A stretch of 36,715 nt of DNA from Bdellovibrionota bacterium FG-1 (GTDB lineage Bacteria; Bdellovibrionota; UBA1018). Location of the stretch: positions 1 through 36,715 of the forward strand of contig JBBCAW010000055.1 of NCBI GenBank assembly GCA_051382295.1, read 5' to 3'. Positions 33,001 to 36,715 of the stretch are shown here, one piece after another. Numbering within the stretch: position 1 is the first letter of the stretch; each line of letters starts with the position of its first letter. A program made the position numbers.

Positions 33001-36000
33001 GTTTCCTGAACCGCGATGATATCGGCATTTTGACTCTCAAACCATTGCGCAAACCCATTTCGGCTCGCCGCCCGGATTCCATTCACATTCCAACTCAGTA
33101 AACGCATGTCATACCCCCATAAGATGGCCATATTTGCCGACTTTGTTAGGCAAAATCAACCTATTTAGAAGAATGGAGATGAGGCCGAAGAGTAGGTAGA
33201 GGAAGGAACCTCAAACAGTGCTTCATGGATTAGGACGCTCAATCAAAATCACTTTTGGCCTCGCTTTCGCGATGGGAATAGCCTTGCCCCCTGCGTACGC
33301 GAAAGCCCCGTGGGAGCGAGACTTCTATGAAGTCGTCAAGGACGTCGTCGGTGATTTTGAATACGACCTCCGAGATGGATCAGCCAAGGGGGTTCAAAAC
33401 ATCTCCTTGAGGAATATCACGACCAGCGAAAACATCCCGGCATCTTTTCGCGACCACCTCGAAGTTTTGATCAATGAGAGCATCGTGAACAACACCAAAT
33501 CCAAGGTGATTCAATGCATCGCCTGTAGGGCCAAACGAGCCACCTTGACCGGCTCTCATTTTGTCGTAAAAACTCCCGAAACCAATCCTACCGAACTTGC
33601 GCGGATCGCCAAAGAAGCCGGTATTGAACACTTTTTAGACGCGGTTTTCACCTTTCAGTCCACGAGTATGATTCTCTCTCTCACGATTTCGGACCCAAAG
33701 GATGGGACCGTGGTCTGGACTCGAAATTACAACTCCGAAACCAGCCGCGCCGCCGCCTTTCGGCGCGGAATCGACTACTCGCAATCTGATCTCGCGCGCC
33801 GGGTGACCGAGTATGCGCCCTCCATCCAATATCGAGGCGTCGTTTATTATCTTTCTGAACCCAATGTCACCGGACTCAGCGGGTGCGTAGGCGCCGGTTT
33901 TAGGATGGTTCAACGTTATGACAACCGAAAAAAAGAAATTGGCTTCGAGGCCGACTACATCCGAAACGCCGCAACCTTAAGCGGCACAGTAACGGGCGCA
34001 TCTGGCGGATCCAGCTCAGATCCAGATCTCTACGGGATGATTAACTTAACGCTCCTTTTTGTTCACAGCTGGAACTTTATCGCCAACAAAGAGGACTTTG
34101 ACAAAGTTCGTGGCAATATTTTGGTTGGGGTGGGAGGAACCTACTCTGCCGGATATATGGGCGGACTCATCCGAACGGGTTGGGAATGGCGTTTAGCCAA
34201 ACATTTTGCGGTCAATGCCGTGGTGGGATTCAGACCCAGCTCGACCGCGATGATCGGGGCTAAAGGCACGACGATCTCCGGAGCGGAGATCGGCGCGGGA
34301 ATCAACTTACTTTACTGAGAATAGGAGGAAAAAGTGAAAAGGATCATAATTGCAAGCGCTCTCACTACTTTGACCCTCTCAGGTTGTGCCTCCGTCAAGT
34401 CTTTCCTTGCGCTCAATGCTTATGACAACACGCCTCCCCCCATTCACAACCCCTTTGATGCGTACGACTCAAAAACCGACTCCACCGACAACATTATTAT
34501 GCGCACCCGCAAGGGCGAACGGTCCATGGAAGTCGAACTTCCAGGCGGAACCTCCCACCTCTCGGAACTCAGCATTCCGGTTTCAAGCGCGTTGCAGGAT
34601 ACCGTCGCGCGAAACCCAGCCTCGGTCTCCCCGATCGAAGATCCAGGCGCCAACGACCCTTCGGCCGAGGGTAACGAAAGTTACGTTTCTGCGCTCAAAC
34701 ATGTGCAATACCTCTATAAATCCCGCCGTTTTGAGGCCGCACTTATCGAAATCGATCACATCCTCAAACAATACCCTACCGCCTCTAAGCTGCATCAAAT
34801 GCGCGGGACTTTACTCGATAGAATCGGACAGCCGCAACTCGCCCTAAAAAGCTGGAGACATGCCCTAGAGCTCGACTCGGGCAATGTGACCTTACGGCGC
34901 TTTGTGGACTCACGCGAACAAAAAAGGAGCCTAGCCTCACCATGAAAATCAGGACAGGCACCCTTCGATTATTCAAAGCCCTGAGTATCATGACGGCCGT
35001 GATGGCCATCAGCGCGACCCTGCCCACCGAGTCTTTGGGAAACTCCAACGCCAAATACAGCGCAGTGGAAACGGTTCAAAAAAACACTGAAGCTCAGGTC
35101 CGACGACTGATTGAGCCGATCTTGGATAAATATTGCCAAGAAAGCTGCAAACTCCTTTCAGTGAGCACCATCGTCGATATGGCCACCGCGGATGAAGTGG
35201 CCCCGGGTTTTGATGAAGTCGAAGGCACATCCAAGGCCGCGGAGCTTGCGCCGAGTTCGGCCCGTGTCAAGCTATTGATCGATGACAAAGTCGGTCCGAT
35301 CTCGCGCCAAAAACTCACGGAACTCGTACAACAATTTTTAGATACGCTGGATTTTCCAGTTAAGATCGACACTCAGTTGGCCCACTTCCCCCAGCCGGTC
35401 GGGGCTGAAAGTCGTGTTGTTGAACTCAGGGATAAAATCATCCGACAGTTCCGTGGAACCATGGACGAACTGTTTAAACAGTTCTGCCCCGAACAGTGCT
35501 TGCTTGCGGATTTTAACATCGTAACCGAAACGGTGAATCCCGAAGAGGCCCAGTATGGGAAGCCCGGCGAATTCATTCAAGACTCCGGCGTAGCCCTCAA
35601 GATCAAAGACATTACGGGTACCATCCTCGTAGACGAAGCCCTCCCCCCCACCGAACGCAACAATATCGTTGAAATGGCTAAGCTCAAAGCGAATGTCTTT
35701 AGAAATGTCAATTTAACCGGAAAAACCCTTAAATTTCCGCATCCTAATTTATTTGTTAACGCCCAAGGCTTAGCCGTCGCGAGTGGGCCCAATGGCGGAC
35801 CTATTTCCGAGAAGGAAAAGAACGATTCTCGGTCTTTAGCCTCAACGAGCGATTCTAAAGAAGCAAAAACGATCACCAACGAATCCCTTCATAAATCGAC
35901 CGCTACCAACGCCAATCAGAATTCAGAAAACAACCAACGCCAAGAAAAATACGAACGCTTTGAAAAAATCGAGCGCGTGGAAAATGGCGACGCGGTACAA

Positions 36001-36715
36001 GCTGAACTACAAAAGTTCAAGGTTTTTGGGCTGATTTTCGCTTGTGCGGTCATCTCGTTGCTTATTTTCTTGGCGATGGCAAGCTACCGGCCTCATGGCG
36101 GAGGAGGTAGCGACTCCTCGCCCATCACTCGAATCATTCAAACGATTGCTCAAGATCCCACAGGTGGGATGTCCGGCCCGGCAACCTTGGGCCCCCCCTC
36201 GGCGAGCGAACATCGTGGGCTGGTCGCCATGCGTTTTGAGATCGAGCGCCTGACCGAGGAACTTACCGCGGTCTTTGCCCAACATCCCAAAGTAGCCAAG
36301 CAGGTGTTTAGCCGAGTCCTGACGGAGGAAGGCGTCGAGACGACCTCGCAATACATTCAGATCTTTGGCGAATCCATCGTGATGGACATGCTTCGCGACC
36401 CCTCTTTGCAGAGCGATCTCTCCGAACTCATGGAATTTTACGCTAAAAACCCCTCTGAACTCAAAGACGAAGAGAAGCTCGATCTTCTGCGCAAGCTTCA
36501 CAATCGCACGATCGCGGGCAAGCTGCTCGTCATGGGCAATCGCTCCTCCAACCTCTTTGACTTCTTGGCCGAAATGGATGGCCTCCAGATTCTCGAACTC
36601 GTGCGCAACGAATCCCTTACGGTAAAATCAATCGTATTGACCCAGGTGGATCCGCAAAAACGGGCGGCCATCTACTCCCAACTGGACGAAGAAACCCGAA
36701 TGCAGCTCTTAAGCG

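What a model noticed while it worked through the whole genome (the two positions that open the first line are those of the whole stretch)
33218..36714. Order-wide second FliF-FliG fusion motor operon with its own MotAB and a cNMP-binding regulator
An operon of outer-membrane barrel g02719, TPR lipoprotein g02720 and ~780-aa g02721 continues with a cNMP-binding protein, MotA, MotB and a zinc-ribbon membrane protein (C123:3-2973; duplicate start at C62:109806-114038). g02721 is one polypeptide with two FliF-like ring-building motifs, a TM helix and FliG middle and C domains. The operon lies apart from the flagellar genes and has no FliM/N, rod or export genes: a minimal non-flagellar rotor-stator machine that is near-core in order UBA1018.
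Evidence so far: Full-length orthologues hit FliG_M and FliG_C above cut-off. AF2 model of an orthologue: the top Foldseek hits are FliG or FliF, 19 with E<=1e-3. Found in 45 of 60 order genomes (30 of 34 family) and 2 of 240 others. Gene order barrel-TPR-fusion-(cNMP)-motA-motB in 17 of 17 order loci. g02719 folds as an LpoB/CsgG-like domain plus an 8-stranded barrel. The C-terminal end of the fusion is g03923/g04353.
(Added by a program. Inside this text positions count along the whole contig: contig position 1 is position 1 of the stretch shown here. "Call 12" and the like, gene names such as g00115 and contig names such as C1 are that model's own, and its searches are not shown. The text may have been shortened before it was handed on; [...] marks where a part breaks off. 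The agent that wrote the report below was given it as the finding of a first reader that could run no searches.)

Follow-up and report, generated by a model that had tools for sequence, protein, structure and literature searches.

The report
Flagellum-free FliF-FliG rotor with stator
These genes encode a stripped-down relative of the flagellar motor (one membrane protein joining parts of the rotor proteins FliF and FliG, plus outer-membrane partners) that is also kept by bacteria with no flagellum, so it is probably an undescribed ion-driven envelope machine.

Summary
The operon is real: a TolB_N/LpoB-like plus 8-strand barrel protein, a TPR lipoprotein, and a rotor-like protein (signal, two copies of a FliF-RBM3-like module, one TM, FliF-C-like helix, FliG N/M/C). 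It is in 75 of 101 order genomes, with motAB directly behind it in 20 of 20 loci read. Two corrections. (1) The window copy is probably a derived duplicate that runs into C147, which has no cNMP gene or motAB; flanking genes pair C62 with C123. (2) It is not order-restricted: one-module relatives sit beside motAB in at least 19 other Bdellovibrionota genomes (including B. bacteriovorus motAB2) and in 27 Myxococcota-type loci. New support for a non-flagellar role: in 7 genomes tested its MotB is the only MotB-plug gene and no flagellin or rod/hook gene was found; 21 of the 27 lack flagellin. EHPQ is lost, FliG Arg281 is Asp/Glu in 31 of 32, and the linked MotA lacks Arg90/Glu98 in 21 of 21. Ring, rotation and output are untested. 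Ten literature searches found no description; this scan noted the family before on other DNA (13 notes).

The parts
33218..34318 (+). Outer-membrane protein: signal peptide, TolB_N/LpoB-like periplasmic domain (about aa 37-175), 8-stranded beta-barrel (aa 202-365). No Pfam or NCBIfam family.
   Evidence: AF2 pLDDT 85.4; VIA NspA Z 16.2, rmsd 2.5, 140 aligned; LpoB Z 9.9, rmsd 4.0, 129 aligned; Foldseek top hits TolB, OmpA, LpoB
34334..34945 (+). TPR lipoprotein, 203 aa; shorter and more diverged than the C62 copy (250 aa)
   Evidence: Lipobox LSGC in the sequence; TPR_2 E 4.8e-5, below cut-off; C62 copy scores higher against relatives in 20 of 20 loci
34942..36714 (+). Rotor-like FliF(RBM3)-FliG fusion, first 591 of about 805 aa; runs off the contig; start overlaps the TPR gene stop by 4 nt
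   Evidence: about 142 aa missing between this end and the C123/C147 starts
35050..35391 (+). Periplasmic module a (about aa 37-150; C-x3-C and PGF motifs), RBM3-like fold
   Evidence: VIA on the orthologue model: FliF RBM3 Z 10.3, rmsd 2.9, 96 aligned; hhalign to one-module family 98.6%
35395..35745 (+). Periplasmic module b (about aa 152-268), tandem duplicate of module a
   Evidence: hhalign a vs b 97.3%, E 1.8e-11; VIA FliF RBM3 Z 10.7, rmsd 2.2, 98 aligned
36022..36078 (+). Single transmembrane helix (aa 361-379)
   Evidence: hydropathy scan; one internal hydrophobic segment at this place in all 32 orthologues
36232..36546 (+). FliF-C-like helix pair (aa 431-461) joined directly to a FliG N-like domain
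   Evidence: weak and indirect: one-module family vs FliF-C 23%, E 9e-4; vs FliG N 84%, E 7e-6; two-module vs one-module link region 98%; VIA aligns model 457-750 to FliG 5-323
36586..36708 (+). Start of the FliG middle domain; EHPQ motif replaced by ESLT
   Evidence: FliG_M E 1.1e-4 on the cut protein
7175..11608 (-). Second, far-diverged module of the same kind in this window: TPR lipoprotein, motA, motB, 557-aa rotor-like protein, 210-aa barrel-like protein
   Evidence: rotor-like protein has no Pfam hit, Atlas first hit 0.92 to a FliG_C/FliG_M cluster, weak profile match E 2e-5 among 3 sequences; a lead, not proven

Best explanation
A flagellum-derived, non-flagellar ion-driven envelope motor. 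Shown by sequence or structure model: one inner-membrane protein carries the S-ring module of FliF (RBM3, doubled in this order), one TM helix and all of FliG, but not FliF TM1/RBM1/RBM2; it is co-inherited with a dedicated MotA/MotB pair, a TPR lipoprotein and an outer-membrane barrel with a TolB_N-like periplasmic domain. Inferred: the fusion assembles into a ring through the RBM3 modules; MotA5B2 units, anchored to peptidoglycan and conducting H+ or Na+ through the conserved MotB Asp, turn or ratchet it through a re-tuned MotA-FliG interface; without FliM/N it does not switch by CheY and is probably set on or off by the stand-alone cNMP-binding protein; the periplasmic modules pass force to the TPR lipoprotein and barrel. 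The most likely output is moving or deploying surface proteins for surface contact or motility (about 0.4 given the machine). The window copy is a lineage-specific duplicate whose rotor stays 93% identical to the other copy while its barrel and TPR diverged, so it probably shares the C123 stator and serves a different outer-membrane partner.
For: Domain anatomy. Fixed linkage to motAB: 20 of 20 order loci, 18 of 20 further one-module loci, five-gene order complete in 22 of 27 Myxococcota-type loci, the other 5 cut by contig ends. Independence from flagella: G163 (91% complete) and G149 (89%) hold the module as their only MotB-plug and only FliG_C hit and gave no FliF, flagellin, FlhA, rod/hook or FliM/N hit, while controls did; flagellin 0 of 9 and 0 of 3 in their families. 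Flagellin over cut-off in only 6 of 27 Myxococcota-type genomes, full-length FliF in the same 6; in 5 of 5 tested further the module's MotB is the only plug and no rod/hook gene was found, one a single 7.5-Mb chromosome, one Lujinxingia vulgaris TMQ2. These share the barrel (E 1e-16 to 1e-26), TPR protein and C-x3-C module with the window genes. Own stator: the 21 linked MotAs form one clade (100/100) apart from the stand-alone motAB1/motAB3-type pairs. Private interface: EHPQ in 4 of 4 canonical FliG and 0 of 54 fusions; Arg281 column D/E in 31 of 32; Asp289 column acidic in 30 of 32; MotA Arg90 and Glu98 columns kept in 0 of 21 linked MotAs but basic/Glu in 5 of 5 motAB1-type (residue roles from PMC6680979). 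MotB Asp kept in 21 of 21. RBM3 alone forms rings (PMC8786727 abstract); engineered FliF-FliG fusions form rings (PMC10941966, PMC6079021 passages). Fn3, Ig or FG-GAP giant proteins lie beside 7 of 23 one-module loci.
Against: No ring, rotation, binding or phenotype was shown. 100 of 101 order genomes have a normal fliF, so in this order the module always sits beside a flagellum. The B. bacteriovorus stator next to a related protein is motAB2, which later papers, citing Morehouse 2011, count as a flagellar stator. The two-module periplasmic part matches FliF RBM3 only through the one-module family; direct hhalign is 2.7-4.7%, and unrelated MamB/MamM and OsmC folds score Z 8.4-9.6 against 10.0-10.7 for FliF. 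In engineered fusions the FliG part is floppy without FliM/N. Loss of the Glu98-Arg281 pair could mean no torque; neighbouring charges (Lys at G-5/G-4, Asp/Glu at G+6) are kept in 21 of 21. No adhesin-like gene was seen next to the two-module operon, and the adhesin neighbours come from related genomes and hand-picked large ORFs. The FliG tree does not resolve one origin for all fusions.
Confidence: 0.62

Rival explanations
1. Non-rotating energy transducer, working like TonB or TolA: MotAB turns against one or a few fusion molecules and pulls on the TolB_N-like domain or lipoprotein to drive outer-membrane transport, assembly or remodelling. Still non-flagellar, but no wheel.
For: TolB is the top Foldseek match of the barrel protein's periplasmic domain. 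Canonical torque pair, GG linker and MFxF motif are changed. No FliM/N to stiffen a ring. Far paralogues have lost recognisable FliG domains yet keep motAB.
Against: The protein keeps RBM3, the module that builds the S-ring, and all three FliG domains in order. The stator is flagellar-type (plug plus OmpA domain; best PDB hits MotA/PomA), not ExbBD/TolQR-type.
Confidence: 0.2
2. Auxiliary flagellar parts: an extra stator for the one flagellum, with the fusion acting as alternative rotor, stator store or assembly aid.
For: fliF in 100 of 101 order genomes. B. bacteriovorus motAB2 is described as one of three flagellar stator pairs (secondary passages); primers for Bd3021/Bd3020 match the stator beside the related protein.
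Against: Module intact in genomes with no flagellar gene found. No RBM1/RBM2 to house an export gate, no EHPQ. Separate stand-alone stators with the canonical charges exist in the same genomes. FliL Bd1076 bound MotB3 but not MotB2 in a two-hybrid test (PMC11323537 passage).
Confidence: 0.08
3. Mechanosensor or signalling device: load on the outer-membrane partner gates ion flow or stator binding, read out by the cNMP protein, zinc-ribbon protein or nearby HAMP-SpoIIE phosphatases.
For: Stand-alone cNMP-binding protein with an intact G-E...R-S-A cassette in 17 of 17. HAMP-SpoIIE genes beside the B. bacteriovorus-type loci and beside the second module in this window. Zinc ribbon weakly like GltJ's (E 0.002).
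Against: The signalling neighbours are not conserved: cNMP gene missing in 3 of 20 order loci and not adjacent in the Myxococcota-type loci, while stator, rotor, TPR and barrel are constant.
Confidence: 0.07
4. For this window only: the copy is a decaying duplicate or an assembly artefact.
For: Long barrel branch (1.18 vs 0.35), shortened TPR protein, probably no adjacent motAB; genome contamination 5.0%; the C62 barrel holds an exact 585-nt repeat that looks like an assembly error.
Against: All three frames are open with Shine-Dalgarno-like sites and tight spacing. C55 carries the only pgk, tpi, secG, orn and nth. Rotor 93% identical while barrel and TPR are 55% and 42% fits homogenisation or selection, not uniform decay or a second strain.
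Confidence: 0.15

Closest known systems
Flagellar motor core: FliF MS-ring, FliG, MotA5B2/PomA5B2
   Same: FliG M and C domains over Pfam cut-offs, FliG N-like domain, RBM3-like module, plug-and-OmpA MotB with the conserved Asp, MotA closest to MotA/PomA structures.
   Different: One polypeptide; signal-like N-terminus and one TM; no RBM1/RBM2 or beta-collar; no EHPQ, FliM/N, export gate, rod or filament; altered torque residues; own barrel and TPR partners; kept in genomes without flagellar genes.
Engineered or mutant FliF-FliG fusions (Salmonella; Vibrio FliFG, PDB 8z4d/8z4g)
   Same: FliF C-terminal helix joined in frame to FliG N; such fusions form rings.
   Different: Those keep full FliF and work in a flagellum; this one is natural, truncated to RBM3 and paired with its own stator.
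B. bacteriovorus second 'FliG' (WP_011165387.1 / CAE80783.1, 577 aa) and motAB2 (Bd3021/Bd3020)
   Same: Signal, one module, TM, FliG domains, in a locus with motAB, a TPR lipoprotein and small barrels.
   Different: One module, no C-x3-C, barrel without the TolB_N-like domain (0 of 20 hits in that family), keeps Arg281; published only as a flagellar stator pair, the protein itself is not discussed in the passages I read.
Other 5:2 ion motors with outer-membrane output: ExbBD-TonB, TolQRA-TolB-Pal, AglRQS-Glt, GldLM-T9SS (roles recalled)
   Same: Works like them: inner-membrane ion motor, periplasmic linker, TPR protein, outer-membrane barrel; TolB_N-like fold; weak GltJ-like zinc ribbon.
   Different: Uses a flagellar-type stator and a FliG ring protein; no TonB/TolA/GltG-type gene found in the operons scanned.

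Membership tests
FliG (TIGR00207 equivalog) | Whole-protein score over the curated cut-off | tested here: not met
   55.5 bits vs 226.7 for an orthologue; the canonical G000 FliG scores 327.9
FliG (TIGR00207 equivalog) | FliG_M and FliG_C domains | tested here: met
   7 of 7 orthologues over Pfam cut-offs; PDB profile hits E 1e-13
FliG (TIGR00207 equivalog) | FliG_N domain | tested here: inconclusive
   VIA aligns it; hhalign 84% only through the one-module family, 2.7% direct
FliG (TIGR00207 equivalog) | EHPQR FliM-binding motif | tested here: not met
   0 of 54 fusions, 4 of 4 canonical
FliG (TIGR00207 equivalog) | Torque-helix Arg281 and Asp289 | tested here: not met
   Arg281 column D/E in 31 of 32, N in 1; Asp289 column E in 30 of 32; Arg297 column basic in 0 of 32
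FliF (PF01514 / PF08345) | RBM1 and RBM2 (YscJ_FliF domain) and two TM helices | tested here: not met
   No Pfam hit; no hhalign match to RBM1/2; one internal TM
FliF (PF01514 / PF08345) | RBM3 (S-ring) module | tested here: met
   One-module family vs RBM3 94.5%, E 7.6e-8, reversed control 0.2%; two-module forms linked at 97-99% to that family; VIA Z 10.0-10.7. Indirect for the window protein.
FliF (PF01514 / PF08345) | Assembly into a ring | not tested
Flagellar-type stator (FIT of PMC12505986) | MotB plug, OmpA-like PG-binding domain, conserved Asp | tested here: met
   C123 MotB over both cut-offs; Asp in 21 of 21. Lies on C123, not in the window.
Flagellar-type stator (FIT of PMC12505986) | MotA Arg90 and Glu98 equivalents | tested here: not met
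   0 of 21 at either column; neighbouring charges kept
Flagellar-type stator (FIT of PMC12505986) | Square-fold TM domain and 4-helix torque interface in 3D | not tested
   MotA was not folded; sequence hits only
Flagellar system (whole) | Co-occurrence with export gate, rod/hook, filament, FliM/N | tested here: not met
   Not found in G163 and G149; flagellin not over cut-off in 21 of 27 Myxococcota-type carriers. Genomes may be incomplete.
Agl-Glt gliding machinery | GltJ/GltG/GltD-type components and TolQR-like AglRQS motor in the operon | tested here: not met
   Only a 40-residue GltJ match far under cut-off (17.3 vs 450 bits); motor is MotAB-type
Any of the above | Ion-driven rotation or force output | not testable with these tools
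   needs experiments

The most novel reading that the evidence does not exclude
The mirror image of the injectisome: a machine that kept the flagellar motor (stator, FliG, S-ring module) and dropped export and filament, spread through Bdellovibrionota, Myxococcota and probably other phyla, present in up to five paralogous copies per genome, each with a private stator-rotor charge code and its own outer-membrane partner, and driving surface adhesins for contact or gliding in predatory bacteria. B. bacteriovorus motAB2 would then be mis-filed as a flagellar stator.
Probability: 0.35. Interest if true: 0.92.

Novelty: categorically new. Interest (0 to 1): 0.78.

Why it matters
MotAB-FliG torque generation is treated as flagellum-specific (PMC12505986 passages find flagellar-type stators to be one specialised clade). 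A natural four- or five-gene machine built from it, kept without any flagellum, would be a new class of envelope motor, a minimal rotor for reconstitution, and a living test of how motor and export halves of the flagellum can evolve apart. It is testable now: a relative lies beside motAB2 in B. bacteriovorus, and a cultured gliding genus (Lujinxingia) carries the full cassette with no flagellin found.

Tried and rejected
Sequencing runs: none was listed for the stretch, so the gap could not be bridged and expression was not examined. The missing 142 aa are not in the assembly (tblastn). My own first guess that the window's upstream xth is the conserved neighbour was wrong (0 of 20). Local GC does not tell which contig ends pair. 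Promoter/terminator scan at chance level. The FliG M+C tree left the origin of the fusions unresolved, with long branches. A reversed-alignment control for the TM-to-FliG link scored 47% through the TM helix alone, so only TM-free comparisons were used. The weak SCF and T7-tail Pfam hits on the barrel are below cut-off and rejected. CsgG likeness rests on Atlas cluster shares only; not listed among the structure matches shown. Ion specificity could not be called: the TM3 Thr of PomA is kept, the first TM4 Thr is Gly (meaning recalled). Literature: searches found no description of the module; the library lacks most subscription papers. Morehouse 2011 was not read. I recall, unverified, a mention of a natural fliF-fliG fusion or orphan motAB-fliG genes in Chlorobium; searches did not find it.
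Full report
Observation. The window is contig C55 of its genome. It ends in three co-oriented, tightly spaced ORFs: 33218-34318 (366 aa), 34334-34945 (203 aa) and 34942-36714 (591 aa, open). The third matches 75 of 101 order genomes (51 of 67 high-quality ones; 0 of 10 in family f2). Seven of seven full-length orthologues pass the Pfam cut-offs for FliG_M and FliG_C. In 20 loci read, chosen from the 74 other positive genomes, the order barrel-TPR-rotor-(cNMP)-motA-motB holds in all 20, with the cNMP gene in 17 and the zinc-ribbon gene in 15.

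The gap, and a correction. The genome has two starts (C55, C62) and two ends (C123, C147). The starts share their last 127 nt, the ends their first 127 nt, and about 142 aa between are not in the assembly: a collapsed repeat. C123 continues with cNMP, motA, motB, zinc ribbon; C147 continues with a zinc-ribbon/SH3 gene and no motAB. The gene before the C62 copy precedes the barrel in 17 of 20 relatives, the window's xth and pepN in 0 of 20; C123's downstream genes recur in 11-14 of 20, C147's in 0. C62's TPR protein scores higher against relatives in 20 of 20 loci, C123's zinc-ribbon protein in 11 of 13, and the two barrels are sisters with the long branch on the window copy. So the ancestral operon is most likely C62-C123, and the window holds a derived duplicate without adjacent stator. 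C55 has the only pgk, tpi, secG, orn and nth, so it is not a stray duplicate contig. The rotors are 93% identical, the barrels 55% and TPR proteins 42%, which suggests two rotors kept alike for one stator (inference).

Anatomy of the rotor-like protein. An AF2 model of an orthologue (pLDDT 75.8, pTM 0.33) gave 18 Foldseek matches at E<=1e-3, all FliG or FliF. VIA aligns residues 30-142 and 144-258 each to FliF RBM3 (Z 10.0-10.7, rmsd 2.2-2.9), though MamB/MamM and OsmC domains reach Z 8.4-9.6, and aligns 457-750 to FliG. Profile comparisons sharpen this: the two modules are duplicates (97.3%); the one-module family matches RBM3 along its length (94.5%, E 7.6e-8; reversed control 0.2%) and not RBM1/2; the two-module forms match that family at 97-99% but RBM3 directly only at 2.7-4.7%. 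After the single TM come a FliF-C-like helix (23%, E 9e-4) and a FliG N-like domain (84%, E 7e-6), again seen through the one-module family. It fails the FliG equivalog (55.5 vs 226.7 bits).

Partners. The barrel protein folds (pLDDT 85.4) as an alpha/beta domain plus eight strands: NspA Z 16.2, LpoB Z 9.9, TolB at the top in Foldseek. The lipoprotein has a lipobox and weak TPR hits. The C123 MotB has plug, OmpA domain and the Asp; MotA is closest to MotA/PomA structures. The cNMP protein has no DNA-binding hit and keeps the phosphate-binding cassette in 17 of 17.

Range. In 168 phylum genomes outside the order no full two-module hit appeared, but a one-module profile found open frames of 540 aa or more in at least 24 (284 matches unlisted); for 19 of these 24 I read the locus and found motA and motB beside it, 5 were not read. 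Two-module forms also exist in proteins named Oligoflexaceae and Silvanigrellales. One relative is identical to B. bacteriovorus WP_011165387.1, and primers for Bd3021/Bd3020 match its neighbouring stator, motAB2. A scan of named genomes gave 27 loci, mostly titled Bradymonadales or Myxococcales, with barrel-TPR-motA-motB-rotor complete in 22 and cut by contig ends in 5. Atlas clusters of 478-717 aa with FliG domains are commonest in Balneolota, Elusimicrobiota (YscJ_FliF_C in 55% of one cluster) and Cloacimonadota (leads only). This genome has three more rotor-like genes (window 7785-9458, C107, C116).

Is it flagellar? In the order, 100 of 101 genomes have fliF, so the order cannot decide. 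Outside it can. G163 (91%) and G149 (89%) carry the module as their only MotB-plug and FliG_C hit, with no FliF, flagellin, FlhA, rod/hook or FliM/N hit, against positive controls; their families gave flagellin in 0 of 9 and 0 of 3 genomes. Of the 27 named genomes only 6 have flagellin over cut-off and the same 6 a full-length FliF (completeness not given). In 5 of 5 tested further the module's MotB is the only plug gene and no rod/hook gene was found, among them a single 7.5-Mb chromosome and Lujinxingia vulgaris TMQ2; the genus is listed as gliding in PMC7188933 (passages). Kin are not independent: these are about three lineages.

A private interface. The 21 linked MotAs, including C123's, form one clade (100/100) apart from the stand-alone motAB1- and motAB3-type pairs (primers). 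Arg90-Asp289 and Glu98-Arg281 are the canonical contacts and EHPQR binds FliM (PMC6680979 passages). EHPQ is in 4 of 4 canonical FliGs and 0 of 54 fusions; the Arg281 column is D/E in 31 of 32 two-module proteins; the linked MotA keeps neither Arg90 nor Glu98 (0 of 21) while 5 of 5 motAB1-type keep a basic residue and Glu. Charges one to two positions away are kept in 21 of 21, so the interface may be shifted rather than lost.

Output. Not shown. Giant Fn3, Ig or FG-GAP proteins lie beside 5 of 20 one-module loci and 2 of this genome's 3 paralogues (only selected large ORFs were scanned). Fn3 genes occur at about one cluster per Mb in five such genomes, so 4 Fn3 neighbours in 23 loci is above the 0.5 expected, but the loci are related and the two-module operon shows no such neighbour.

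Literature. Ten searches found no description of the module (listed under Tried and rejected). Seen: passages of PMC12505986, PMC11323537 (plus supplement rows), 10.1101/2025.02.19.638989, PMC11271337, PMC12827227, PMC13689555, PMC10225642, PMC7188933, PMC10941966, PMC6079021, PMC6680979; abstract of PMC8786727. Morehouse 2011, which reports that all three B. bacteriovorus motAB pairs contribute to swimming, I know only from its title and secondary passages; it is the main published point against a purely non-flagellar role. The bioRxiv supplements were not visible. This scan's earlier notes reach the same general reading on other DNA; they are not counted as evidence.

Verdict. Real; works like the flagellar rotor-stator core but fails membership of FliG, FliF and the flagellar system. 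Non-flagellar machine of some kind about 0.89; ring rotor 0.62. Rated categorically new at the level of the machine, built from known parts. Interest 0.78.

Noticed in passing
window 7175-11608 (-) and 5573-7203 (+): A second, far-diverged module (TPR lipoprotein, motA, motB, 557-aa rotor-like protein, small barrel) faces another motAB pair; HAMP-SpoIIE (3598-5619) and FecR (2729-3601) genes lie next to it.
   Followed up: partly
window 1100-2706 (+): Stand-alone E. coli-type motA (TIGR03818 over cut-off) that groups with B. bacteriovorus motA3, probably the true flagellar stator; its MotB has a plug but no OmpA hit.
   Followed up: partly
L085:7895-9353 (G000 C33): motAB1-type pair whose MotB has Gly in place of the essential Asp, while its MotA keeps the canonical Arg and Glu.
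   Followed up: no
L087:269-9817 (G000 C116) and L084:2020-8098 (G000 C107): Two more rotor-like modules, beside a 1694-aa Fn3/LamG/Ig lipoprotein and a 977-aa He_PIG lipoprotein; the C107 module has no adjacent motAB.
   Followed up: partly
L002 (G000 C62:109806-111521): The barrel gene of the other copy holds an exact in-frame 585-nt tandem repeat, probably an assembly artefact.
   Followed up: partly
G000 C141:13758-14201 and C86:9212-9661: Small stand-alone proteins (147, 149 aa) matching the FliG C-terminal region; similar 133-197 aa frames in G009 and G180.
   Followed up: no
L201-L204 (family f10): One-module loci preceded by 1660-2060 aa proteins with no Pfam hit in the three scanned, and a 325-390 aa protein with a weak match to the rotor profile.
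   Followed up: partly
L156-L182: Myxococcota-type loci add conserved genes: an OMP_myx_plus barrel, a 650-830 aa protein, a second barrel upstream, and two proteins of no known family downstream.
   Followed up: partly
L049:12386-15615 (G017): A one-module cassette with its own motAB lies directly upstream of the two-module operon.
   Followed up: no
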